NCBI GenBank assembly: GCA_964016885.1
Contig: OZ024764.1
Coordinates: forward strand, 24,490,001-24,554,000
Direction of reading: 5' to 3'
DNA: 64,000 nt
Source of the DNA: Eledone cirrhosa
Lineage: Eukaryota
Below the pieces are notes generated by a model. It made no database searches, had not been told where the DNA came from, and was given only the letters and a program-made list of their open reading frames with translations. Shown piece by piece: positions 1 to 14,887 of the stretch (its first letter is position 1; every line of letters begins with the position of its first letter). Both the position numbers and the translations under genes were made by a program.

Positions 1-3000
1 TCCAACGTCTGGAAACTTTTCTGGGAACGTCCCGCTCCTTGCTTTTAGTGGGGGACTGGAATGGTATCCTGGATGCACGTTGGGACTATGTAGGGGCATG
101 TGCCAATAGAGGGGGGTGTAAAAGCCTCAAAAGGTTAATCGGCCGATTTGACCTGGCCGATAGATATCGACTAGATTTTCCGACTGTACCACTATGGACG
201 TGGACCAATCGCAGTGGAACATCTAGGTCGTACCTAGATAGGGTCCTAGTTAGAGAGAACGATAGGGACACATTTAGCTGTCCAAAAATGTTCATGGTTG
301 ACTATTCGGATCACAAGTTAGTGACCTGCATAGCCAACCTTGATAGAACCCATAGACAGGGACCCGGTTACTGGAAGCTGAACTTGTCCTTACCGAGAAG
401 CAAAGCTTACAGTAAACGGATTAGCACGTTAGTTAAGCAGAGTTTGACAGGGGCAATTGTCAACAACAGGTGGTGGAGCTCTCTTAAGAGAGCAATTAGA
501 ATAGAATCGATAGGTTTTAGTCAGGAATTAGCAAGGGATAGGAACAAGACGGAAAGGGAATTAGTAGATAGAGTAGAAGAGGCGATTAGGAGTGGCAATG
601 TAGCCGGCGTGCTGGCATCAAGAATGGCCTTAGACCAGTTCTTTGAGGTGAAGCATGAAGGCTGCGTTGTCAGAAGTAAAATACGTGCTCTGGGTAATGA
701 GGGAGCCAAAGCTGTAAGCTGGGCCCGAGTGACAGAGGCAAAAAGTGGGAACAAGTCCACGATTCGGTCTTTGAAGAACCAGGATGGGCGTGTGATCCTT
801 GAACCTGGGCAGATGTGTGCGGCCTTTCAGCGGCACTTTGCACGACTGTTCGAGAGGGGCGGCGCGCCGGGTGAGACTATGGATTTCAATCCATACCTCG
901 ACGGTCTGCCGCGCCTCTCGGACGCGGAGGCGAAGTCCTGCGAAAGGACGATTTCAGCTGCTGAGATAGGGGCGGCGCTGAGCCAATGCGGCAAACGCAA
1001 ATCCCCGGGTCTCGATGGTCTACCATACGAGCTATATGTAGCAATGCCGGACTTGTTCTCCGATATCCTCGAAGCGGTCTACTGCAACTGGCAGCAGAAC
1101 GGGAGAATTCCCAGTTCTGTGACCAAGGGCGTAGTTACGCTGGTGAGGAAGGATGAGAACAAGGGGGATGACATAAGTAACTTCAGGCCCATAACTCTGC
1201 TAAATACAGAGTTAAAGATTTTGGCCAAGGTGTTAGCGAAGAGGTTGGCGCTTGTCGTTGGAAACCTGGTGGGAGAAGCGCAGACATGCGCAATCCCGTC
1301 CAGGTCCATTCACGACAATCTCCACCTTATGCGATACATCATAGAGAGGGTAGGGAATGAACCCGGCTTTGGTGGGGCCCTGATCAACTTGGATCAATCT
1401 AAAGCTTTCGATAGGGTTGACCATCGTTACCTGGATGCGGTGCTCGCGGCGGCAGGCTTCGGACCCGTTTTCAGGGGTTGGATTGCTGCGATGCACAGCA
1501 GCAACGTCTGCTCAAGGGTCAAGGTGAACGGCCACCTCTCGGAGCCGTTCCAAATCATGCGATCCATCCGACAGGGATGCCCTCTCTCCTCCCTACTGTA
1601 TGTGCTGGCTCTTGAGCCACTACTGCGGAAGTTGGAGCGGTTGCAGGGCATCCCTTTGGAACCGGGATTGCAGAAAGCGGCGTCGGCCTACGCCGATGAC
1701 GTGACAGTAATGGTGTCGAAAACCTCGCAAATCGGTGAGATCGGCACCTTACTGGAGGAATATGAAAGGTTTACAGGAGCCAAGCTGAACCGGGACAAGT
1801 CCGTCGGTTTGCAACTCGGAACATGGAGAGGCAAACCGATGCCCTCCAACGACGTCGTCGGACGCTGGACGGAGGGCCCGGTGAAGCTGCTTGGGGTCTG
1901 GTTCGGACCAGACCTCCAGGTGGAGAAAAACTGGAACGAGGTAACGGCGAGGGTGTTTGCACTCACCCAGAAGTGGGCCCAGTGCAAACTATCCCTGAAA
2001 GGTCGAGCGGAGGTGGCGAATACTTATATAGCATCCGTCATCTACTACCGCTTGACCGTCGTGCCTTGCCCAGTGAAAAGACTCGCCAAAATGGAGTGCG
2101 CGCTGTTCCAATTTTTTTGGAACAAGCGGACCCCTTTGGTGAGGAGATCCATCTGCTGTCAACACCCTTCGAAAGGAGGGCTGGGGATGCCGTGGCTACA
2201 GATGCGTAAACACGCATTAAGGCTACGGCACCTCCAGGTATTCCTCACCGGTCAACCGGTGTGGGCCCCGTTTGTGAGGCGAGCCTTTCCCAGACTCGTC
2301 TCGCTCACCGAGCTGCAATCCTGGGTCAAGCAAAGACCGAGAAAAGTGGGCGACTGGCACATTGAATGTGCCCAGGCGCTCACGGCCCTCTGGAAAGCGG
2401 ACCCGGCAATCAGTGGAGACTCCACCTCGACATTCTATAGAGGGTTGGTACGCAGCAGGTGCGACGATGCTCTCGGAGAAGCTCTAGGCATGGAGGAAGA
2501 TGAACTGGCCAGTCTGTTCGGTAGGACGTTTGGCCCTGGACCGATGGACAACTTCCAAAAGTCCCTGGCTTGGCAGTGCTACCGAGGGGCTCTACCCGTT
2601 CGAGACAAGCTCCACAGGCATGGGAGCCTGGGTAGAGATCCTTTGAATAAGATCTGTCCGAGATGCGTGCATGATGACGAAACCGTTGCGCACGCATTCG
2701 TACACTGCCCAGGCATTGCTGACCTGTGGGGCTATGTGGAACGACTACTGTCGAGGGTGGGACCAATCCGGTTGACCACCGAGTCCATTGTCACGATCAA
2801 ACCGCCTCCCCCTTTCAAAAACGAAGGAGAGGCGGTTTTTCTCTGTGTGGTAGCCATGGCTAAAGAAGTTGTATGGTGGACGAGGCTGAAAGGGCTGAGG
2901 TCAGACACCTTTCTCTCCGGCCAACAACTGGTCCCCTTTTTCAAATACCACTTTAAAAGAAGGATCAGAATGGAGAGAGAGGTGCTCTACCCCAGCAAGT

Positions 3001-3308
3001 TTTATGAAAGGTGGGTGAAAGTAGGGAGAATGGCCAGAGTGAATGGGTCTTCTCTCTATATCAGCCTGTAGGTGAAAGAAGAGGAAAAAGAGGAGACGAG
3101 GGAAGCACCTACTCTTTGTGCTCCTGAGGAGAAGGGTTACACATTTTTTCCGGGGTGTGTGCGACCCATGTTAATGCCCCCTCCCTATTGAGGACTTCGT
3201 TTGTTGTTGTTATTTCATTGTTATATTTTTGTACTCGTTAATTATATGTAAACTTCCCCCCTTGTATCTGTCCCTACCTTTTGTGCCCTAGTGGCAAATA
3301 AAGAAACC
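1..3308 (+). mobile_element. Tx1-clade non-LTR retrotransposon, copy 1 (5' part outside window)
   Basis: ORF2 plus 3' UTR ending GGCAAATAAAGAAACC. About a dozen substitutions by eye versus copy 2 at offset 10615. Confidence 0.95.
3..3071 (+). CDS. ORF2 (partial): AP-endonuclease, reverse transcriptase, C-terminal CCHC zinc finger
   Basis: EN motifs GDWN, LDRVLV, SDH; Tx1-like GPGYWKLN and PSKGGLG; RT motifs KSPGLDG, FRPITLLN, DQSKAFD, QGCPLS, YADD; CPRC...HAFVHC. Frame is open to the window edge. Confidence 0.95.
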   Translation, partial: QRLETFLGTSRSLLLVGDWNGILDARWDYVGACANRGGCKSLKRLIGRFDLADRYRLDFPTVPLWTWTNRSGTSRSYLDRVLVRENDRDTFSCPKMFMVDYSDHKLVTCIANLDRTHRQGPGYWKLNLSLPRSKAYSKRISTLVKQSLTGAIVNNRWWSSLKRAIRIESIGFSQELARDRNKTERELVDRVEEAIRSGNVAGVLASRMALDQFFEVKHEGCVVRSKIRALGNEGAKAVSWARVTEAKSGNKSTIRSLKNQDGRVILEPGQMCAAFQRHFARLFERGGAPGETMDFNPYLDGLPRLSDAEAKSCERTISAAEIGAALSQCGKRKSPGLDGLPYELYVAMPDLFSDILEAVYCNWQQNGRIPSSVTKGVVTLVRKDENKGDDISNFRPITLLNTELKILAKVLAKRLALVVGNLVGEAQTCAIPSRSIHDNLHLMRYIIERVGNEPGFGGALINLDQSKAFDRVDHRYLDAVLAAAGFGPVFRGWIAAMHSSNVCSRVKVNGHLSEPFQIMRSIRQGCPLSSLLYVLALEPLLRKLERLQGIPLEPGLQKAASAYADDVTVMVSKTSQIGEIGTLLEEYERFTGAKLNRDKSVGLQLGTWRGKPMPSNDVVGRWTEGPVKLLGVWFGPDLQVEKNWNEVTARVFALTQKWAQCKLSLKGRAEVANTYIASVIYYRLTVVPCPVKRLAKMECALFQFFWNKRTPLVRRSICCQHPSKGGLGMPWLQMRKHALRLRHLQVFLTGQPVWAPFVRRAFPRLVSLTELQSWVKQRPRKVGDWHIECAQALTALWKADPAISGDSTSTFYRGLVRSRCDDALGEALGMEEDELASLFGRTFGPGPMDNFQKSLAWQCYRGALPVRDKLHRHGSLGRDPLNKICPRCVHDDETVAHAFVHCPGIADLWGYVERLLSRVGPIRLTTESIVTIKPPPPFKNEGEAVFLCVVAMAKEVVWWTRLKGLRSDTFLSGQQLVPFFKYHFKRRIRMEREVLYPSKFYERWVKVGRMARVNGSSLYISL

Positions 3309-4383
3309 ACTCTATATATACTATTGAATTTTCATGGTAAAGGCTTTACCTCACATAATATCTCACATAACATTTACATTACTCTATATATACTATTGTA
3401 TTTTCATGGTAAAGGCTTTACCTCACATAATATCTCACATAACATTTACATTACTCTATATATACTATTGTATTTTCATGGTAAAGGCTTTACCTCACAT
3501 AATATCTCACATAACATTTACATTACTCTATATTTACTATTGTATTGTCACAGTAAAGGCTTTACCTCACATAATATCTCACATAACATTTACATTACTC
3601 TATATATACTATTGTATTGTCACAGTAAAGGCTTTACCTCACATAATATCTCACATAACATTTACATTACTCTATATTTACTATTGTATTGTCACAGTAA
3701 AGGCTTTACCTCACATAATATCTCACATAACATTTACATTACTCTATATATACTATTGTATTTTCACAGTAAAGGCTCTACCTCACATAATATCTCACAT
3801 AATATTTACATTACTCTATATTTACTATTGTATTGTCACAGTAAAGGCTTTACCTCACATAATATCTCACATAACATTTACATTACTCTATATATACTAT
3901 TGTATTTTCACAGTAAAGGCTCTACCTCACATAATATCTCACATAATATTTACATTACTCTATATTTACTATTGTATTGTCACAGTAAAGGCTTTACCTC
4001 ACATAATATCTCACATAACATTTACATTACTCTATATATACTATTGTATTTTCACAGTAAAGGCTTTACCTCACATAATATCTCACATAACATTTACATT
4101 ACTCTATATATACTATTGTATTGTCACAGTAAAGGCTCTACCTCACATAATATCTCACATAACATTTACATTACTCTATATATACTATTGTATTTTCACA
4201 GTAAAGGCTTTACCTCACATAATATCTCACATAACATTTACATTACTCTATATATACTATTGTATTTTCACAGTAAAGGCTCTACCTCACATAATATCTC
4301 ACATAACATTTACATTACTCTATATATACTATTGTATTTTCATGGTAAAGGCTTTACCTCACATAATATCTCACATGACATTT
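3309..4383 (+). repeat. 72-bp tandem array (~15 units) abutting the Tx1 3' end
   Basis: Unit ACTCTATATATACTATTGTATT(T/G)TCACAGTAAAGGCTTTACCTCACATAATATCTCACATAACATTTACATT; lines repeat every 360 bp (5x72). Confidence 0.98.
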
Positions 4384-4520
4384 AATCTGAGATTTTGGTA
4401 TTATTTATTTCGAGAACAATACCTTCACCTAAGTATGAGTGGCCAGTTATAGCCAGTTTGAATAGAAAGAAGTGAGGGAATTCTGGCCGGATATGGCTGG
4501 TTTAAATGCTAAAAGGATAT
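4384..4520. mobile_element. MITE-like arm (~140 bp), putative piggyBac-like (TTAA) non-autonomous element
   Basis: Homologous to 14350-14489 and to the reverse complement of 48446-48584; ends TTTAAATGCTAAAAGGATAT (degenerate terminus). Confidence 0.65.
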
Positions 4521-4623
4521 ATTATTTTTAAAAAATTGAATATGTATAGACCAACTCAGCTTGCATGTATGTATGTTGTTCTAGAAATTCAGCTGCTATT
4601 TTTAGCAGGTCTAGCTATAATAT

Positions 4624-4885
4624 ATCATCATCCTGTGGCCTCAGCCAAAATGGACTCAACAATTGATCTCCACGTGGGTCTGTCGTTCATTGCCGTTGCC
4701 AAGTCCTGGATTTCAATACCAGAATCTCTGTAGATGACATCGGGGTAGGAGAGCTTGTGTCCCCTGTTATTAGTGACTGCTTGTGGTTTCTAGAGCACTA
4801 ATGGGGACACAGCCTCAGAGCTGGTACGATGGCAGTGGCCAGCAAATCTTACTCTCCTTATACGTACGACAGATATGCATGGGAG
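4624..4885 (-). mobile_element. Degenerate 3' fragment of an RTE-like LINE
   Basis: Minus-strand translation LSYPDVIYRDSGIEIQDLATAMNDRPTWRSIV resembles the C-terminus of the element at 62370-63134; short GATGAT tail. Confidence 0.55.
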
Positions 4886-4890
4886 GCCGG

Positions 4891-5529
4891 CTGACATGTC
4901 TGTATGTTGTTCTAGAGATCCAGCTGCTATTTCTAGCAGGTCTAGCTACCATCTATAGAACAACTGACATGTCTGTTGTTCTAGAGATCCAGCTGCTATT
5001 TCTAGCAGGTCTAGCTACCATCTATAGACCAACTGACATGTCTGTTGTTCTAGAGATCCAGTTGCTATTTCTAGCAGGTCTAGCTACCATCTATAGAACA
5101 ACTGACATGTCTGTTGTTCTAGAGATCCAGCTGCTATTTCTAGCAGGTCTAGCTACCATCTATAGACCAACTGACATGTCTGTTGTTCTAGAGATCCAAC
5201 TGCTATTTCTAGCAGGTCTAGCTACCATCTATAGAACAACTGACATGTCTGTTGTTCTAGAGATCCAGCTGCTATTTCTAGCAGGTCTAGCTACCATCTA
5301 TAGACCAACTGACATGTCTGTTGTTCTAGAGATCCAGCTGCTATTTCTAGCAGGTCTAGCTACCATCTATAGAACAACTGACATGTCTGTTGTTCTAGAG
5401 ATCCAGTTGTTATTTCTAGCAAGTCTAGCTACCATCTATAGAACAACTGACATGTCTGTTGTTCTAGAGATCCAGTTGTTATTTCTAGCAGGTCTAGCTA
5501 CCATCTATAGAACAACTGACATGTCTGTT
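4891..5529. repeat. 69-bp minisatellite (~9 units)
   Basis: 23-aa periodicity in ORF 4783..5556; a single diverged monomer lies at ~4570-4620. Confidence 0.93.
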
Positions 5530-5698
5530 CTGGTTGAACAAGTAAGGAATGTTTAGTTCTGTTTCTATTTGTGGGGATTAATACCTTGGAGCTTTCATGA
5601 GGCCCCAGCCTGTTATTAGTGTGGCTGGGTGGGGTGTATGTGTGTATGTATATATGTATATATATGTGTGTGTATGTATATATGTTTATGTATGTATG

Positions 5699-5730
<32 letters not shown>

Positions 5731-5731
<1 letters not shown>

Positions 5732-6600
5732 TTTCTCTTTCTCTTAATTTCGAGTATATTTTTTTGACCGGCCACCTTCCTGGTGGCAAGGTTGTAAAAG
5801 AAAAGAAATTGTCATCCCTTGAATCGCAAGAATGTTTTGCAAATTTTGAAGGTGCCAGCTTTCGCAGCCACTTGTAGACTATGAATTAGGGAGCTGCGCT
5901 CTTTGTCCGCAAATCCAAGTTCAGTCATACTTTGGTCCAAATGGGTTGGTATATAACCCGTAGCTCCAATAATGATGGGTATGAAACTAAAGGTGTATCT
6001 TGGATACTGGATTTGTAAACTCCTCATCAATGGTCCGTAGATGTCCTCTTTCTCTTGTATTTTTCTGACAACGTTTACATCAAGTGGGCAGCTGATCTCC
6101 ACAACAGAACACGTTTTCAATGTGTGGTCCCAAACAACAATATCAGGCCGGTTGTGCTTTAATTTGGTAGCAGTTTTTATTTTCAGGTTCCACCAGTATT
6201 CCTTAGTGCCATCTGTCTCAATATATTCTTCCTCGTTAGTTGTTAATTTTGTTTTCCGAAGTGCGTTCCAGATGGTTCTAGCTATCCCATCGTGTCTCAT
6301 GGGGAGGTAGTAGCGAGATGACATTCTTTCGCAGCTGGCAACAATGTGGCTTACATCCTCGATCTTTGTTTTACATAGCCTACATTTATTGTCAGCTGAT
6401 GGCCCTCCTCTTTTGTGCAGCAGATATTTGGTAGGGAGTTCTTGTTCCTGTATTGCATAGAGATATCCCTCAAGGTGTGATGTCATAAACTTGTCGGAAC
6501 TCCATGCCAGGCTCTTTGAGTGGTTTATCCCATCTATGGTCTGTGTTTTACGTCTCAAGTATCCATGCACAACTTTTTCTGTAAATTGGTCAATTTTTTC
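5731..6600 (-). mobile_element. 5'-truncated RLE-type LINE (R4/Dong-like) in a (TATG)n microsatellite
   Basis: ORF 5812..6570(-) has CRLC...HIVASC knuckle, RHD motif and RPDIVV...EISCP restriction-like endonuclease core; TATG repeats on both sides. Confidence 0.85.
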
Positions 6601-6984
6601 AATGTATGTATGTATGTTTGTTTGTATATATGTATGTATGTATGTATGTTTGTTTGTATGTTTGTTTGTTTGTAAATATGTATGTATGAATGTATGTTTG
6701 TATGTATGTATATATATTTCTAGGCATGTATGTGTGTATGTATGTATGTGTGTATGTATGTTCTTCTGGTTTTATAATTTCACAAAGTTTTACCAATAGA
6801 GAGAGAGTCGGTTTCTAACATAGACACAAGACTCTCAGTGGAATTTACACAACATCAACTAGGTAGATATGTATGTCTGCATGTGTAGATATGGATGTTA
6901 TTGTATGTGTGGATGTGGATGTTTTGAGTTGTATGTGTGCATGTGTATATGCTTTGTATCTGTACATGTGTATATGCAGTTATT

Positions 6985-7070
6985 AGATACAACATTTTTG
7001 GAATGTTTTACATATTTTTACTGTTCCATTAATGGATTGTACTTGTAATTTCCTAACTAGTGTTCTTTCT
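6985..7070 (-). mobile_element. Short diverged 3' fragment of a related RLE-type LINE
   Basis: LQVQSINGTVKICKTF matches LQVAAKAGTFKICKTF of the 5812 ORF; again next to TGTA/TATG repeats. Confidence 0.6.
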
Positions 7071-7575
7071 GTATGTATGTATGCATGTGTATATATGTAA
7101 ATGTATGTGTATATATTAATATGTATATACATGTGTGCATGTGTATGTATATGTGTGGGGACATAGAAATAATTGGGCTGGATACCCAATCCGCAGTTAA
7201 ACCACTGGGAGTGAAGGACCCCTAGCCTTTGTCAGGGCATTCTTCTAGAAGGCAACTCAGGAAACTGGGATAACTCTGACATAAAACCTGCGGCTCAGTA
7301 GTTACCGATGATGTTAATCTTTTCTTCTTTTCAGGTTATAGCTACTGTCTCTCAGAGAGTGGGATTGGCTCAGTGCACAGTCTTTCCTCACTTTAAAACA
7401 TATCTTCACACACAGGCATTGCAGGATGGCATTAATTGATAATTTAATGTTATATCGTGCAATAGCCATACTCGATAACAAGGGGGCAACCATCATGTAT
7501 GTATATATGTATGTCTATATGTATATATTTATATATAAATGTAATCTGAGTTTTTCAAATATTAATAATTGTTTC

Positions 7576-7692
7576 TACTTTTGGCACAAGGCCAGCAATT
7601 ATCCAGTGTATTACTGGTACTTTATTTTATCGACCCCGTAAGGATGAAAGGCAAAGTTAACCTCGGCGGGATTAGAACTCAGACTCTATGCG
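7576..7692 (-). mobile_element. Truncated tRNA-derived SINE (family 2)
   Basis: Homologous to 45728-45860 (TTTTGGCACAAGG...GGATGAAAGGCAAAGTTAACCTCGGCG); stops at ACTCTATGCGT where the 72-bp array begins. Confidence 0.75.
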
Positions 7693-8291
7693 TCACATAA
7701 TATCCCACATAACATTTACATTACTCTATATATACTATTGTATTTTCACAGTAAAGGCTTTACCGCACATAATATCTCACATAACATTTACATTACTCTA
7801 TATATACTATTGTATTGTCACAGTAAAGGCTTTACCTCACATAATATCTCACATAACATTTACATTACTCTATATATACTATTGTATTGTCACAGTAAAG
7901 GCTTTACCTCACATAATATCTCACATAACATTTACATTACTCTATATATACTATTGTATTGTCACAGTAAAGGCTTTACCTCACATAATATCTCACATAA
8001 CATTTACATTACTCTATATATACTATTGTATTTTCACAGTAAAGGCTTTACCTCACATAATATCTCACATAACATTTACATTACTCTATATATACTATTG
8101 TATTGTCACAGTAAAGGCTTTACCTCACATAATATCTCACATAACATTTACATTACTCTATATATACTATTGTATTGTCACAGTAAAGGCTTTACCTCAC
8201 ATAATATCTCACATAACATTTACATTACTCTATATATACTATTGTATTGTCACAGTAAAGGCTTTACCTCACATAATATCTCACATAACAT
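7693..8291 (+). repeat. 72-bp tandem array (~8.3 units) upstream of Tx1 copy 2
   Basis: Same unit as 3309-4383; ends CACATAACAT at the element 5' end. Confidence 0.98.
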
Positions 8292-8492
8292 CTCGTATAC
8301 GAGAGACGTGTGTGAACAAGCTCGGCTACCGAGTCGGATTTACTTACTCAAAAAGTGAGTTTTGATTAATTTTTTTATACTGTAATATACGTTAACCCCT
8401 TGCCTTGGTCGTCAAACTTTGAGTTTATTTATTTTCGCCCCTTTTTGGGGCGAATTTTCCAGTTAAAAATTTATTACGGCAAACTAATAGAA

Positions 8493-10226
8493 ATGGACGG
8501 AATTTTCACATCTCATCCTAACGTGAAAGCCACGCCCCCTAAGAAAGGTGATACAGAGAAGCTAGAAGCACAAGGCTCTAAGTCTTCCCTCCTCACTTCT
8601 GCAAAAGAAACATGGAACACGGAATTAAAAGAAAAATTTGTAGAAATGGGTGAAAACCCAGAAAGTCACATAAACGCAGACAAAAACATCAACGACAATA
8701 ACAGCAATAGTCACAACACCAACCAAGGAAAAAATAACGATAACACCAAACAAAGTGAACCCACTACTGGTACCTCCTTTGCACAGGCGGTCCGGAAAAC
8801 ACAAACCTGCAAGCAACTGGACATTACAACTCTGAGAGAAAAGATGAAGGAAGCGAAACAGTATGTAACTTTCAAAGAAGGAGGAGACTTCACAATCACC
8901 TCCCCACAAGAAATCAAAAGAGACACGACGCTAAGAACGATATCTTTCAGAACAATTTCCAACATAACAAGGAAACCAACTCAATTATCCCAAAAAGAGA
9001 TTGAGCTGGTCCTAAAAAATGTGTGGAGTGATATATCGTTCATACAAAAAGGGCCACTCTATGGGAATATAACGGTCCTAATGAAGGATCAATTGACGGC
9101 CAGGAAATACTCTGTGGCACCAATTGTTTCCAAGATATATACATTTTTCCCCACATATTTAGGGAAAAGAACGCAGAAGATAAGGGTCTCCGGAATCCGG
9201 CCAAATGCATGCATTTCCTGGGTACTAACAGGATTTTTAGAAGACGAGGACGGAATCCTCTCAGTAGGAGAAGTCACCACAGACGTTTTCGGCGGTTTGA
9301 GCGTGGAGGTTCTGGTCCAAATGAGACCAGAACGAATCGCTAGAATACCACAGAGGGTGTCCCTCGATGGAGAAACATTTATATATATTTCAGCCGAGGG
9401 TAGGAGGCCCATATGTTACTACTGTTCAAGCAGGGGTCATCTAAGGGCTGCTTGTCCTCAATTGACAAAAAAAAAGGCTCTTTTGCCTACACCCCACACA
9501 CCACCACCGCCACCACCACCACCACCACCACCTCCACCACAACAACGACAAAAACAACAGGGAAAAATAACACAAGACACGGCCCCACCCAAAACAACTC
9601 CCAAAACACACACAAATACAACAAAACCCCAAAATACACCACTACCCGACAGCACGGACGAGGACCCAGCGGAAACGGCACCTAGTGACGAAGAGGGGGA
9701 ACCCTTCCAACCTGTAAAAAGGAAAAAAAGAAAGCACCACTCGAACATAAACGAAACAAACACACAACCACCAACAAAAACAAAACAAACAGAACAAACA
9801 AAATCCGCCCCACCCCAAAACATAACACACACAACAAAACGTAAGCACACACAAGAACAACAAACAAACACAACACAAATAAAACAGTATACATACATTA
9901 ACACAAATAACAAAGAACTAGTAAAAACAATACACAAAGACCCTTTGGTGGAAACTGAAGGGCAATTCTTTGCAAGCGCGGCCAACAAACCGCATTTAAA
10001 AATGATAAGACTCCCAATGGACACCTATGCAAAACTAAGAGAGAACTTTCCTGAGGACGTGGGGAAAACATGTACTCGACCCTATAACCGCGTCCTCTTG
10101 AAACGTTTCCCCACCCACACCTCACCAAACACCCCCACTCCACCACAGAACAACACCCCACCAAACAACCCCTCCAATACGCCCATGGATATTGTGCAAC
10201 CTGCTCCTCAGGAGCCGAACAGGTAG
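8493..10226 (+). CDS. ORF1 gag-like nucleic-acid-binding protein (577 aa from first ATG)
   Basis: CCHC knuckle CYYCSSRGHLRAAC, Pro/Thr/Lys-rich low-complexity C-terminal half, basic KRKKRK; position upstream of ORF2. Confidence 0.9.
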   Translation: MDGIFTSHPNVKATPPKKGDTEKLEAQGSKSSLLTSAKETWNTELKEKFVEMGENPESHINADKNINDNNSNSHNTNQGKNNDNTKQSEPTTGTSFAQAVRKTQTCKQLDITTLREKMKEAKQYVTFKEGGDFTITSPQEIKRDTTLRTISFRTISNITRKPTQLSQKEIELVLKNVWSDISFIQKGPLYGNITVLMKDQLTARKYSVAPIVSKIYTFFPTYLGKRTQKIRVSGIRPNACISWVLTGFLEDEDGILSVGEVTTDVFGGLSVEVLVQMRPERIARIPQRVSLDGETFIYISAEGRRPICYYCSSRGHLRAACPQLTKKKALLPTPHTPPPPPPPPPPPPPQQRQKQQGKITQDTAPPKTTPKTHTNTTKPQNTPLPDSTDEDPAETAPSDEEGEPFQPVKRKKRKHHSNINETNTQPPTKTKQTEQTKSAPPQNITHTTKRKHTQEQQTNTTQIKQYTYINTNNKELVKTIHKDPLVETEGQFFASAANKPHLKMIRLPMDTYAKLRENFPEDVGKTCTRPYNRVLLKRFPTHTSPNTPTPPQNNTPPNNPSNTPMDIVQPAPQEPNR

Positions 10227-10247
10227 GTCCTTCCTCTTTTAACCAAC

Positions 10248-13200
10248 ATGGCTGATATAAGAGTTGGGTTTCTGAATGTACGTGGCCTGGGACTGTCTTG
10301 GAAACAAGGCAAACTTTTAAACGATCTCAGGTCACATAGAATGGATGTAATGGCTATTTGCGAGTCCAGGATCAGCAGCGAGCACCAACTGGCGCCCCTC
10401 TTCGACGACTTTGAGATCTTCGCATCTCTCTGTCAACCGGGGGGTGGGGGGGGGAGTTGTCGTTCTGCTGCGAAAACACCTGGGCCTCGCCATACAGAAG
10501 GTGCACCTGGACCCGGAGGGTCGACTGGTGGTTTTAGACGTCGGCAGTAGTGAAAGTGGAGCCCTTAGACTAATAGCTGTGTACGCCCCTTTTTGGGCAG
10601 CGCGGCCGGAATACTTCCAACGTCTGGAAACTTTTCTGGGAACGTCCCGCTCCTTGCTTTTAGTGGGGGACTGGAATGGTATCCTGGATGCACGTTGGGA
10701 CTATGTAGGGGCATGTGCCAATAGAGGGGGGTGTAAAAGCCTCAAAAGGTTAATCGGCCGATTTGACCTGGCCGATAGATATCGACTAGATTTTCCGACT
10801 GTACCACTATGGACGTGGACCAATCGCAGTGGAACATCTAGGTCGTACCTAGATAGGGTCCTAGTTAGAGAGAACGATAGGGACACATTTAGCTGTCCAA
10901 AAATGTTCATGGTTGACTATTCGGATCACAAGTTAGTGACCTGCATAGCCAACCTTGATAGAACCCATAGACAGGGACCCGGTTACTGGAAGCTGAACTT
11001 GTCCTTACCGAGAAGCAAAGCTTACAGTAAACGGATTAGCACGTTAGTTAAGCAGAATTTGACAGGGGCAATTGTCAACAACAGGTGGTGGAGCTCTCTT
11101 AAGAGAGCAATTAGAATAGAATCGATAGGTTTTAGTCAGGAATTAGCAAGGGATAGGAACAAGACGGAAAGGGAATTAGTAGATAGAGTAGAAGAGGCGA
11201 TTAGGAGTGGCAATGTAGCCGGCGTGCTGGCATCAAGAATGGCCTTAGACCAGTTCTTTGAGGTGAAGCATGAAGGCTGCGTTGTCAGGAGTAAAATACG
11301 TGCTCTGGGTAATGAGGGAGCCAAAGCTGTAAGCTGGGCCCGAGTGACAGAGGCAAAAAGTGGGAACAAGTCCACGATTCGGTCTTTGAAGGACCAGGAT
11401 GGGCGTGTGATCCTTGAACCTGGGCAGATGTGTGCGGCCTTTCAGCGGCACTTTGCACGACTGTTCGAGAGGGGCGGCGCGCCGGGTGAGACTATGGATT
11501 TCAATCCATACCTCGACGGTCTGCCGCGCCTCTCGGCCGCGGAGGCGAAGTCCTGCGAAAGGACGATTTCAGCTGCTGAGATAGGGGCGGCGCTGAGCCA
11601 ATGCGGCAAACGCAAATCCCCGGGTCTCGATGGTCTACCATACGAGCTATATGTAGCGATGCCGGACTTGTTCTCCGATATCCTCGAAGCGGTCTACTGC
11701 AACTGGCAGCAGAACGGGAGAATTCCCAGTTCTGTGACCAAGGGCGTAGTTACGCTGGTGAGGAAGGATGAGAACAAGGGGGATGACATAAGTAACTTCA
11801 GGCCCATAACTCTGCTAAATACAGAGTTAAAGATTTTGGCCAAGGTGTTAGCGAAGAGGTTGGCGCTTGTCGTTGGAAACCTGGTGGGAGAAGCGCAGAC
11901 ATGCGCAATCCCGTCCAGGTCCATTCACGACAATCTCCACCTTATGCGATACATCATAGAGAGGGTAGGGAATGAACCCGGCTTTGGTGGGGCCCTGATC
12001 AACTTGGATCAATCTAAAGCTTTCGATAGGGTTGACCATCGTTACCTGGATGCGGTGCTCGCGGCGGCAGGCTTCGGACCCGTTTTCAGGGGTTGGATTG
12101 CTGCGATGCACAGCAGCAACGTCTGTTCAAGGGTCAAGGTGAACGGCCACCTCTCGGAGCCGTTCCAAATCATGCGATCCATCCGACAGGGATGCCCTCT
12201 CTCCTCCCTACTGTATGTGCTGGCTCTTGAGCCACTACTGCGGAAGTTGGAGCGGTTGCAGGGCATCCCTTTGGAACCGGGATTGCAGAAAGCGGCGTCG
12301 GCCTACGCCGATGACGTGACAGTAATGGTGTCGAAAACCTCGCAAATCGGTGAGATCGGCACCTTACTGGAGGAATATGAAAGGTTTACAGGAGCCAAGC
12401 TGAACCGGGACAAGTCCGTCGGTTTGCAACTCGGAACATGGAGAGGCAAACCGATGCCCTCCAACGACGTCGTCGGACGCTGGACGGAGGGCCCGGTGAA
12501 GCTGCTTGGGGTCTGGTTCGGACCAGACCTCCAGGTGGAGAGAAACTGGAACGAGGTAACGGCCAGGGTGTTTGCACTCACCCAGAAGTGGGCCCAGTGC
12601 AAACTATCCCTGAAAGGTCGAGCGGAGGTGGCGAATACTTATATAGCATCCGTCATCTACTACCGCTTGACCGTCGTGCCTTGCCCAGTGAAAAGACTCG
12701 CCAAAATGGAGTGCGCGCTGTTCCAATTTCTTTGGAACAAGCGGACCCCTTTGGTGAGGAGATCCATCTGCTGTCAACACCCTTCGAAAGGAGGGCTGGG
12801 GATGCCGTGGCTACAGATGCGTAAACACGCATTAAGGCTACGGCACCTCCAGGTATTCCTCACCGGTCAACCGGTGTGGGCCCCGTTTGTGAGGCGAGCC
12901 TTTCCCAGACTCGTCTCGCTCACCGAGCTGCAATCCTGGGTCAAGCAAAGACCGAGAAAAGTGGGCGACTGGCACATTGAATGTGCCCAGGCGCTCACGG
13001 CCCTCTGGAAAGCGGACCCGGCAATCAGTGGAGACTCCACCTCGACATTCTATAGAGGGTTGGTACGCAGCAGGTGCGACGATGCTCTCGGAGAAGCTCT
13101 AGGCATGGAGGAAGAGGAACTGGCCAGTCTGTTCGGTAGGACGTTTGGCCCTGGACCGATGGACAACTTCCAAAAGTCCCTGGCTTGGCAGTGCTACCGA

Positions 13201-13686
13201 GGGGCTCTACCCGTTCGAGACAAGCTCCACAGGCATGGGAGCCTGGGTAGAGATCCTTTGAATAAGATCTGTCCGAGATGCGTGCATGATGACGAAACCG
13301 TTGCGCACGCATTCGTACACTGCCCAGGCATTGCTGACCTGTGGGGCTATGTGGAACGACTACTGTCGAGGGTGGGACCAATCCGGTTGACCACCGAGTC
13401 CATTGTCACGATCAAACCGCCTCCCCCTTTCAAAAACGAAGGAGAGGCGGTTTTTCTCTGTGTGGTAGCCATGGCTAAAGAAGTTGTATGGTGGACGAGG
13501 CTGAAAGGGCTGAGGTCAGACACCTTTCTCTCCGGCCAACAACTGGTCCCCTTTTTCAAATACCATTTTAAAAGAAGGATCAGAATGGAGAGAGAGGTGC
13601 TCTACCCCAGCAAGTTTTATGAAAGGTGGGTGAAAGTAGGGAGAATGGCCAGAGTGAATGGGTCTTCTCTCTATATCAGCCTGTAG
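10248..13686 (+). CDS. ORF2 EN-RT-zinc finger, ~1145 aa if one extra G in the G-run at ~10439-10454 is removed
   Basis: ORF 10248 gives the EN N-terminus (MADIRVGFLNVRGL...ICES); ORF 10411..13686 continues GVVVLL...GDWN...SDH...YADD one frame over. Confidence 0.92.
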
Positions 13687-13923
13687 GTGAAAGAAGAGGA
13701 AAAAGCGGAGACGAGGGAAGCACCTACTCTTTGTGCTCCTGAGGAGAAGGGTTACACATTTTTTCCGGGGTGTGTGCGACCCATGTTAATGCCCCCTCCC
13801 TATTGAGGACTTCGTTTGTTGTTGTTATTTCATTGTTATATTTTTGTACTCGTTAATTATATGTAAACTTCCCCCCTTGTATCTGTCCCTACCTTTTGTG
13901 CCCTAGTGGCAAATAAAGAAACC

Positions 13924-14349
13924 ACTCTATATATACTATTGTATTTTCACAGTAAAGGCTTTACCTCACATAATATCTCACATAACATTTACATTACTCT
14001 ATATATACTATTGTATTGTCACAGTAAAGGCTTTACCTCACATAATATCTCACATAACATTTACATTACTCTATATATACTATTGTATTTTCACAGTAAA
14101 GGCTTTACCTCACATAATATCTCACATAACATTTACATTACTCTATATATACTATTGTATTGTCACAGTAAAGGCTTTACCTCACATAATATCTCACATA
14201 ACATTTACATTACTCTATATATACTATTGTATTGTCACAGTAAAGGCTTTACCTCACATAATATCTCACATAACATTTACATTACTCTATATATACTATT
14301 GTATTTTCACAGTAAAGGCTTTACCTCACATAATATCTCACATAACATT
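13924..14349 (+). repeat. 72-bp tandem array (~6 units) downstream of Tx1 copy 2
   Basis: Same unit and same junction (GAAACC|ACTCTATAT) as copy 1. Confidence 0.98.
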
Positions 14350-14489
14350 GAATCTATGAGATTTTGATGTTATTTATTTTGAGAACAATGTCATAACATC
14401 AGTATGAGTGGCCAGCTACAGCCGGTTTGAACAGAAAGAGGTGAGAGAATTCTGGCTGAATACAGAAGGTTGAAATGCTAAAGGATTAA
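14350..14489. mobile_element. MITE-like arm ending AAATGCTAAAGGATTAA
   Basis: ~80% identical by hand alignment to 4384-4520; terminal TTAA at 14486-14489. Confidence 0.7.
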
Positions 14490-14887
14490 GGGTACTCATA
14501 TTTGTGGATTGCTGAATCTCCCTGAGAACTACAGCAAGGGTACAAGTGCCTGTTTATTAATATGTCAACATACATCTCCTGCCTGCAACTAATTGGATTA
14601 ATATTTCTTCCTTTCAGACTCTCCACAAGTGGCCACCGATCTGAATGTCGCACACCAACAACATGTTCAATTAAACGATGATGATGATAGTGGTGATGAT
14701 GATGACAATGTTAATGACATCGATTGTTATGTATATATGTATATACATATATTCATATATATATATATATATATATATATAAGACACTCTTCCTACTATT
14801 TCAAGCGTCAAACTAATATATTCCTTCCATATACTGTACCGATTGTGTTGTTATTTCTGTTTACCTTTTACATACATACATATATAT

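What the first reader, a model, noticed from the sequence alone, without database searches (positions are those of the whole stretch)
3309..4520. Age paradox: near-identical arrays on old, diverged MITE arms suggest the array moves with, or is rebuilt by, the LINE
Seen: LINE copies 1 and 2 differ at about a dozen of 3300 positions, and array units share one consensus and the same TTT/TGT variant at all loci. The adjoining arms are only ~80% identical by hand alignment. Upstream of copy 2 the array abuts a truncated SINE rather than a MITE terminus. Inference: the transposing RNA includes flanking units (read-in and read-through) and overwrites the cognate segment of old MITE copies, or the RT re-copies the unit. 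Either way the element would spread its own landing pads. Gene conversion between arrays is the alternative.
Basis: inference. Interest (0 to 1): 0.8.

Follow-up and report, generated by a model that had tools for sequence, protein, structure and literature searches.

The report
Retrotransposon that duplicates its landing sites
A young copy-and-paste jumping gene lands at one fixed spot in a 72-base repeat inside an old small transposon; it does not appear to carry the whole repeat array with it, but it likely carries a short piece of its landing site that overwrites half a repeat and sometimes duplicates neighbouring DNA (here a perfect 4,983-base stretch), a variant of tricks known from frogs and flies.

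Summary
In detail: copies 1/2 differ at 12 of 3,308 sites, arms are 82-86% alike, all five arrays carry TTT and TGT, and a SINE abuts array B. Whole-array transport is not supported: only 14 of 100 sampled arrays have a LINE end within 10 kb, the youngest LINEs sit among locus-specific units, and unit variants track chromosomal neighbours (p<0.0005), not LINE kinship (p 0.10-0.26). 'Rebuilt by the LINE' is partly right. Local variants from unit position 41 on are lost in the unit touching the LINE 5' end (0 of 6 kept), implying a ~25-32-nt target-derived leader. Copy 1 is flanked by a perfect 4,983-bp direct repeat running from the insertion site to copy 2's 5' junction: most likely an independent insertion into a pre-existing 25-unit array with a giant target duplication. 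LINE-bearing arrays are more alike between loci (2.8%) than LINE-free ones (7.8%), so units do move between loci, probably by DNA exchange. Precedents: Xenopus Tx1/Tx1D; R1/R2 leaders. This scan already reported the LINE-in-MITE system on other DNA of this genome. Whether the LINE seeds LINE-free arrays stays open (~0.2).

The parts
1..3308 (+). LINE copy 1, 3' part (the element starts at window -2322, upstream of the window)
   Evidence: groups with a copy on contig C8, not with copy 2, in the tree
3309..8291 (+). Right-hand copy of a perfect 4,983-bp direct repeat flanking copy 1 (left copy at window -7305..-2323); begins at the insertion site, ends at copy 2's 5' junction
   Evidence: 0 mismatches in 4,983 bp, no extension to the left
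3309..4384 (+). 15 units = units 11-25 of the pre-existing 25-unit array of MITE A
   Evidence: same private variants in the same order as the array at window -8025
4385..4520 (+). Right arm of MITE A (decayed TIR end)
   Evidence: identical copy at -6229..-6094
7562..7690 (-). SINE fragment joined to a partial unit; left TIR of MITE B is missing (deletion inferred)
   Evidence: sequence
7693..8291 (+). Array B, upstream of copy 2 (8 units plus a partial unit)
8260..8291 (+). Unit positions 34-65: inferred target-derived 5' leader of the LINE, predicted to pair with LINE bases +13..+41
   Evidence: overwrite test; fold; shuffles
8292..13923 (+). LINE copy 2, full length 5,632 bp. ORF1 8493-10226; ORF2 from 10248 with a 1-base frameshift near 10446 relative to copy 1; AP-endonuclease, RT and zf-RVT domains; no poly(A) tail
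13924..14349 (+). Downstream array of copy 2 (6 units)
14350..14490 (+). Right arm of MITE B
50965..52145 (-). LINE copy 3, internally deleted (LINE 1-863 joined to 5305-5630), same junctions at both ends
52146..52998 (-). Upstream array of copy 3, next to a decayed left end
48450..50964 (-). Downstream array of copy 3 (48585-50964) and right arm of MITE C

Best explanation
The arms are old, independent MITE insertions and the arrays are younger expansions inside them, into which a young site-specific LINE inserts; the LINE likely brings only a ~25-32-nt copy of its target on its RNA 5' end, not the array. Steps: (1) shown: the LINE 3' end sits at one phase of the unit and its 5' end always follows unit position 65. 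(2) Shown: the 3' half of that adjoining unit loses local variants. (3) Inferred: the cDNA end anneals by homology to any nearby unit. An upstream unit gives a loss of 7+72k bp, a downstream one a duplication of 65+72k bp. At copy 1 it paired with copy 2's 5' junction 5 kb away and duplicated 4,983 bp holding about 23 more target sites. (4) Shown: units are exchanged between loci. Inferred: mainly by DNA-level exchange among neighbouring arrays in LINE-rich chromosome regions, not by transport in LINE RNA.
For: Fixed phase: 29 of 30 and 75 of 80 3' ends; 30 of 30 5' junctions. 301 5' ends vs 347 3' ends, so mostly full length. Three 5'-truncated copies have 2-9 bp TSDs and no leader (L206, L239, L256). 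Locus-majority variants at position >=41 are kept in 0 of 6 cases by the adjoining unit vs 5 of 6 by each neighbouring unit; at <=35, 15 of 21 are kept. Duplicated targets of 328, 793 and 4,983 bp. Copy 1 differs from copy 2 at 20 of 5,632 columns while the flanks differ at 0 of 4,983, and it shares 11 of those 20 states with an unlinked copy. Arrays are mostly LINE-free, 86 of 100; 10 of 18 informative LINE-free arrays carry their own terminal unit's variants. Rare variants are shared within 1 Mb (Jaccard 0.062 vs 0.017, 0 of 2,000 permutations) but not by LINE kinship. Precedent for leaders: PMC2718515, PMC3774820.
Against: No RNA was seen, so the leader is inferred from DNA only. The overwrite test at >=41 rests on 6 variants at 5 loci, two of them 20 kb apart. 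Many young copies show no clean duplication, and later array turnover blurs junctions. One truncated copy (L234) does carry a full 65-bp unit at its 5' junction. The model does not fully explain why 22 of 28 informative LINE-bearing arrays lost their local variants, including positions outside the leader; preferential insertion into arrays that match the leader is an untested alternative. The 4,983-bp repeat could also come from unequal crossing-over between LINE copies or from an assembly join. Some neighbour pairs may be old segmental duplicates (not excluded for L208/L209).
Confidence: 0.58

Rival explanations
1. One reading: the transposing RNA contains several flanking units (read-in and read-through) and lays the young array into old MITE copies.
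For: LINE-bearing arrays are alike across chromosomes (2.8% vs 12.2% for terminal units) and the array-specific TGT variant is in 17 of 37 of them vs 2 of 20 LINE-free arrays and 0 of 30 monomers. No poly(A) tail, so read-through is plausible (sequence).
Against: The youngest LINEs (0-0.25% apart) have different, locus-matching units on both sides. No link between unit variants and LINE distance (p 0.10-0.26); far pairs of near-identical LINEs share no more rare variants than any far pair (0.015 vs 0.018). Copy 1 and L281 entered pre-existing arrays. The kinship test has modest power because most adjoining units carry few variants.
Confidence: 0.08
2. The arrays grow and homogenise without the LINE (slippage, unequal exchange, ectopic conversion in repeat-prone distal regions); the LINE only picks arrays that match its leader and adds nothing lasting.
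For: The window holds other minisatellites (69, 45, 57, 48, 112 bp) with no such LINE. Locally made junctions exist: the AG-type junction occurs only with a G-type TIR, 13 of 60 vs 0 of 40, p=0.001, and a private TIR base is copied into units at 4-5 of 15 independent loci. Rare variants follow neighbours. MITEs with one monomer or an array are known (miDNA4, PMC12628747).
Against: It does not account for the overwritten half-unit or for duplications that start exactly at the insertion site. Long units in LINE-free arrays are of the LINE-leader length type in 25 of 27 cases vs 2 of 21 long monomers.
Confidence: 0.27
3. For the 4,983-bp repeat only: copy 1 inserted normally, and a crossover between copies 1 and 2 on different chromatids (or an assembly join between haplotypes) produced the duplication.
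For: Copies 1 and 2 are identical over their first 501 bases and share a 10-bp 5' deletion seen in only 4 of about 70 5'-complete copies, so copy 1's 5' end is probably copy 2-derived, as any such chimera would be.
Against: The switch lies in the first 0.5-1.5 kb of 5.6 kb, where a cDNA end would invade. The two flank copies have 0 differences, which two haplotypes need not show. Shorter duplications from the same site occur elsewhere.
Confidence: 0.3

Closest known systems
Xenopus laevis Tx1 (Tx1L) inserting into Tx1D, a non-autonomous piggyBac family (PMC4494074 and PMC6719617, passages)
   Same: AP-endonuclease LINE that targets a fixed site in a TTAA-flanked non-autonomous DNA transposon.
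   Different: Here the 5' end carries target sequence and junction duplications vary in whole-unit steps up to 5 kb. That Tx1D has internal tandem repeats and Tx1L a fixed ~23-bp TSD is recalled, not seen (the original papers were not held).
Melanogaster-type R1 (PMC2718515, passages)
   Same: Transcript carries target sequence ending a few bases upstream of the nick (-9 there, -7 here); precise deletion or rearranged junctions for full-length copies; short TSDs for 5'-truncated copies; tandem stacks of elements.
   Different: Target is the 28S gene, not a tandem unit, so R1 cannot choose among registers or multiply whole target units.
R2 elements with upstream 28S sequence on the RNA (PMC3774820, passages)
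   Same: Target-derived leader of similar size (up to 36 nt) that base-pairs with the element's 5' RNA and anneals to the target, giving uniform 5' junctions.
   Different: R2 has a restriction-like endonuclease and an HDV-like ribozyme; no ribozyme family matched here, only a predicted hairpin.
Crocodilian Tx1-Mar families in Mariner-N4_AMi; Kibi/Koshi in microsatellites (PMC4494074 section 15)
   Same: Tx1-type elements that prefer another transposon or a microsatellite; older relatives of this LINE sit in (TATC)n/(TA)n.
   Different: No tandem target unit inside the host transposon was described in the section read.
miDNA4 and Xstir/Xmix MITE-derived tandem repeats (PMC12628747, passages)
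   Same: A MITE present with a single monomer or with an internal array.
   Different: No site-specific LINE is invoked there.
L1 insertions with 1-10 kb tandem duplications read as large TSDs (bioRxiv 10.1101/2024.12.14.628481, passages)
   Same: kb-scale duplication at an insertion site.
   Different: There attributed to break-induced replication in cultured/cancer cells; here the far end coincides with a homologous LINE junction in an assembled genome.

Membership tests
L1/Tx1-type non-LTR retrotransposon | ORF2 with N-terminal AP endonuclease, RT and C-terminal zinc finger; separate ORF1 | tested here: met
   Pfam Exo_endo_phos, RVT_1, zf-RVT; best solved relative is human L1 ORF2p, E 3e-53; ORF1 with a CCHC motif
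Tx1 clade proper | RT groups with Tx1/Keno/Kibi in a phylogeny | not tested
   no named Tx1 reference was returned, so no clade tree was built
Sequence-specific LINE | Invariant 3' insertion site | tested here: met
   29 of 30; 75 of 80, four exceptions being 77-91% relatives in microsatellites and one a 2-bp deletion
Sequence-specific LINE | Endonuclease cuts that site in vitro | not testable with these tools
   needs biochemistry
TTAA-flanked (piggyBac-like) MITE | Short, non-coding, TIRs, TTAA on both sides, high copy | tested here: met
   ~229 bp, 14-bp TIR inside the TTAA, TTAA on both sides in 24 of 26; 12,695 exact left ends
TTAA-flanked (piggyBac-like) MITE | Autonomous partner of piggyBac (vs Kolobok) type | not tested
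   no transposase was sought
R1/R2-like target-leader integration | Target sequence on the element 5' end replaces local sequence | tested here: met
   0 of 6 local variants kept at >=41; divergence 0.9% vs 3.3-6.5% at positions 49-65; small sample
R1/R2-like target-leader integration | RNA 5' end mapped in the target; self-cleaving ribozyme | tested here: inconclusive
   no Rfam ribozyme match; hairpin predicted, 15 of 1,000 shuffles and 2 of 370 other LINE 45-mers as strong; no RNA data
   permutation p 0.10-0.26; Jaccard 0.015 vs 0.018

The most novel reading that the evidence does not exclude
The LINE is the founder of most arrays. Aborted reverse transcription of read-through or array RNA, primed at the target nick and resolved by homology, writes the leader-type half-unit and junction into old single-unit MITEs, which then expand locally. 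The element would thereby manufacture thousands of LINE-free landing pads, a retrotransposon-seeded minisatellite family. Hints: long units of LINE-free arrays are leader-type in 25 of 27 vs 2 of 21 long monomers; L149 joins six local variants to a leader-type end that its own short terminal unit lacks; slippage-type junctions lie far from LINEs (median 50 Mb vs 2.5 Mb). A DNA donor explains these hints equally well.
Probability: 0.2. Interest if true: 0.8.

Novelty: new variant of a known kind. Interest (0 to 1): 0.48.

Why it matters
It resolves the apparent age paradox and gives an unusually readable record of the least understood step of LINE integration, the joining of the 5' end. Because the target is a tandem unit with locus-specific marks, each insertion shows which unit the cDNA paired with and how much it overwrote. 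It shows a site-specific LINE enlarging its own target array and causing kb-scale duplications in an animal genome. If the novel case held, a retrotransposon would be the seed of a genome-wide minisatellite family. The basic LINE-in-MITE arrangement has close precedents and was already noted by this scan.

Tried and rejected
A DNA search of the genome with the 72-bp unit returned nothing because common words are skipped; patterns were used instead. I first read copies 1/2 as a plain tandem duplication and dropped that when the LINEs differed at 20 sites and the flanks at none. A young array-bearing MITE subfamily moved by transposase was rejected: arms of array-bearing MITEs differ by 16.8% (n=25) vs 12.8% for monomers (n=26). 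A fixed 65-bp TSD was rejected: the adjoining unit often does not match the first downstream unit. L265/L266 share an upstream flank but are a 97% segmental copy, not a 5' transduction. RNA: no RNA holder listed. Contigs of four runs laid on L262 gave only repeat-derived joints and no usable empty allele. Rfam gave only a chance miRNA hit. Array divergence did not correlate with LINE age (rho 0.08, p 0.58). Homologues carried no names. Paper searches listed nothing on this system or on LINE-seeded arrays and one search listed no paper; subscription journals and Repbase were not searched, and the supplements of PMC4494074 and PMC13282606 were not read.

Full report
OBSERVATION. The window holds three copies of one LINE, each flanked by arrays of a 72-bp unit. 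Copies 1 and 2 differ at 12 of 3,308 sites; units differ by 0.8-3.5%, and T and G at unit position 23 occur in all five arrays. The three arms are 82-86% identical. Array B abuts a reverse SINE fragment with no left TIR.

THE PARTS. The LINE is 5.63 kb, with ORF1 and an ORF2 of AP endonuclease, RT and zf-RVT, closest among solved structures to human L1 ORF2p. Tx1-clade membership was not tested by tree. The genome (G000; probably an octopus, a recalled reading that earlier notes share) has 347 exact 3' ends and 301 exact 5' ends. 71 aligned copies differ by 1.9% on average and the youngest are identical over ORF2. The host is a ~229-bp MITE with a 14-bp TIR and TTAA on both sides in 24 of 26 copies, 7.6% from its consensus; it has 12,695 exact left ends. 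Matched patterns gave 3,266 single-unit copies and 860 array ends, and there are 32,602 exact unit junctions. These are exact-match lower bounds that favour young sequence. My loci come from the first 100 places that each search listed, mostly contigs C1-C10.

SITE SPECIFICITY. The 3' end is followed by unit position 1 in 29 of 30 loci and in 75 of 80 larger loci (the sets overlap in part). The 5' end follows unit position 65 in 30 of 30, and 71 of 80 copies reach it. Three truncated copies have only 2-9 bp TSDs; one (L234) has a full unit instead.

COPY 1 IS NOT A FAIR TEST OF THE PARADOX. DNA upstream of the window shows a 25-unit array with a left TIR, then arm A, the spacer, the SINE and array B, before copy 1. 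Window 3309-8291 repeats -7305..-2323 with 0 mismatches in 4,983 bp. The repeat starts at the unit 10/11 insertion site and ends at the LINE 5' junction. The two LINEs differ at 20 of 5,632 columns; at that rate about 18 differences would be expected in the flank (my arithmetic). Copy 1 shares 11 of the 20 states with an unlinked copy and groups with a C8 copy. It is therefore most likely a new insertion into an existing array with a giant target duplication. Its first 501 bases match copy 2, including a rare 10-bp deletion, so the join was made in or near copy 2's 5' end. A crossover between the two LINEs or an assembly join gives the same structure and is not excluded.

DOES THE ARRAY TRAVEL? 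No sign of it. Of 100 array starts, 14 have a LINE end within 10 kb. The youngest copies lie among different units that match their own locus; L281 and L282 have 328 and 793 bp of exactly duplicated local units, while L259, L209, L250 and others show no duplication. Pairs of loci sharing a variant in the adjoining units are not closer in LINE sequence (p 0.16, 0.10, 0.26, 0.15), and far pairs of near-identical LINEs share rare variants no more than other far pairs, 0.015 vs 0.018. Arrays within 1 Mb do share them, 0.062 vs 0.017, 0 of 2,000 permutations, 30 pairs among 58 loci, after dropping two same-cluster loci.

WHAT THE LINE DOES REWRITE. Variants present in at least 60% of a locus's units are kept by the unit touching the LINE 5' end in 15 of 21 cases at positions <=35 and in 0 of 6 at >=41, where each neighbouring unit keeps 5 of 6. 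Divergence at positions 49-65 is 0.9% in that unit vs 3.3% and 6.5% in its neighbours. The LINE's bases +13..+41 are predicted to pair with unit positions 34-65 (15 of 1,000 shuffles and 2 of 370 other 45-mers as strong); no ribozyme family matched. I infer a leader of about 25-32 nt. Passages of PMC2718515 describe the same for melanogaster R1: target sequence ending at -9, precise junctions, TSDs on truncated copies. Passages of PMC3774820 describe R2 leaders of up to 36 nt.

THE REAL RESIDUE OF THE PARADOX. Over unit positions 1-41 (position 23 left out), majority units differ between loci by 2.8% in 37 LINE-bearing arrays and 7.8% in 20 LINE-free arrays (p 6e-4 for distance to the common unit), while terminal units differ by 12-13% in both (two duplicate LINE-free loci dropped) and arms by 15-17%. 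The TGT variant is in 17 of 37, 2 of 20 and 0 of 30 monomers. Local descent from the terminal unit holds for 6 of 28 and 10 of 18 informative arrays. Units thus do pass between loci, more so where LINEs are. DNA exchange among neighbours, LINE-anchored conversion and preferential insertion into leader-matching arrays remain unseparated.

ORIGIN OF LINE-FREE ARRAYS. Mixed. An AG-type first junction occurs in 13 of 60 arrays with a G-type TIR and 0 of 40 others (hand count, first 30 checked by script), and a private TIR base reappears in units at 4-5 of 15 independent loci (six related loci counted as one). Both point to local slippage for a minority. Most junctions are the leader type whatever the local TIR, and long first units are the 72-bp type in 25 of 27 vs 2 of 21 long monomers (13 duplicate or LINE-linked loci skipped). 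Against reading this as seeding, terminal units of arrays are also mostly 72-type (9 vs 2), so a 72-type MITE subfamily or later turnover could explain it. This is the open novel case.

PRIOR KNOWLEDGE. Tx1 in Tx1D and crocodilian Tx1-Mar (PMC4494074 passages and section 15; PMC6719617 passages). MITEs with monomer or array (PMC12628747 passages). kb-scale duplications at L1 sites (bioRxiv 10.1101/2024.12.14.628481 passages). An octopus repeat annotation lists 13 recently active L1-Tx1 families without targets in the passages read (PMC13282606). Searches listed no paper on this system. This scan had noted the LINE-in-MITE system, and the leader idea, on other DNA of this genome; I reached the leader reading before that look-up, and one note prompted the fold test.

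VERDICT. Real feature, interpretation partly supported, new variant of a known kind. The 4,983-bp duplication and the positional overwrite map are the additions; interest 0.48.

Noticed in passing
L210, L223, L224, L257, L021: Older relatives of the LINE (77-91% identity for the first four) end in (TATC)n, (TA)n or (TCTG)n microsatellites, not in the MITE; the MITE site is itself TA-rich, hinting at a target shift from microsatellites.
   Followed up: partly
window 8260-8333; L282 5' junction: LINE bases +13..+41 are an imperfect inverted copy of unit positions 34-65 and are predicted to form one long hairpin with them; the first 12 LINE bases are a perfect palindrome.
   Followed up: partly
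L085, L098, L014; window 7562-7690: A SINE whose tail resembles the LINE 3' end sits in several MITE copies, in L085 exactly at the LINE's site and in the LINE's orientation.
   Followed up: partly
G000 C1: LINEs and arrays crowd the chromosome ends while monomers fill the interior: 20 LINE 3' ends in the first 31 Mb and 7 in 431-434 Mb of 443 Mb, against 93 of the first 100 monomer hits lying at 31-163 Mb.
   Followed up: partly
G000 C1:4.22-4.26 Mb; C10:40.72-40.75 Mb: Head-to-tail stacks of up to six full LINEs separated by 1-20 units, like tandem R1 arrays.
   Followed up: partly
L216: Chimeric LINE: 3' part 0.11% from the youngest copies, 5' part 1.1% from its nearest neighbour.
   Followed up: no
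window 4901-5529, 45862-46398, 46704-47846, 53483-54120, 54816-55158: Other minisatellites (69, 45, 57, 48, 112 bp); the 48- and 112-bp ones lie within dispersed SINE-like repeats. The region is generally prone to tandem expansion.
   Followed up: no
window 22232-38833 and 38905-42475: 16.6 kb of TG/TA-rich compound satellite, interrupted by a ~950-bp dispersed repeat at 27774-28723, followed by 3.6 kb of (CAC)n.
   Followed up: no
L292-L295, L300, L301, L167: Array-bearing MITE copies with a shared left flank (L292-L295, L300, L301) or the same unit variants (L167) on several contigs: the MITE and array moved as part of a larger repeat.
   Followed up: no
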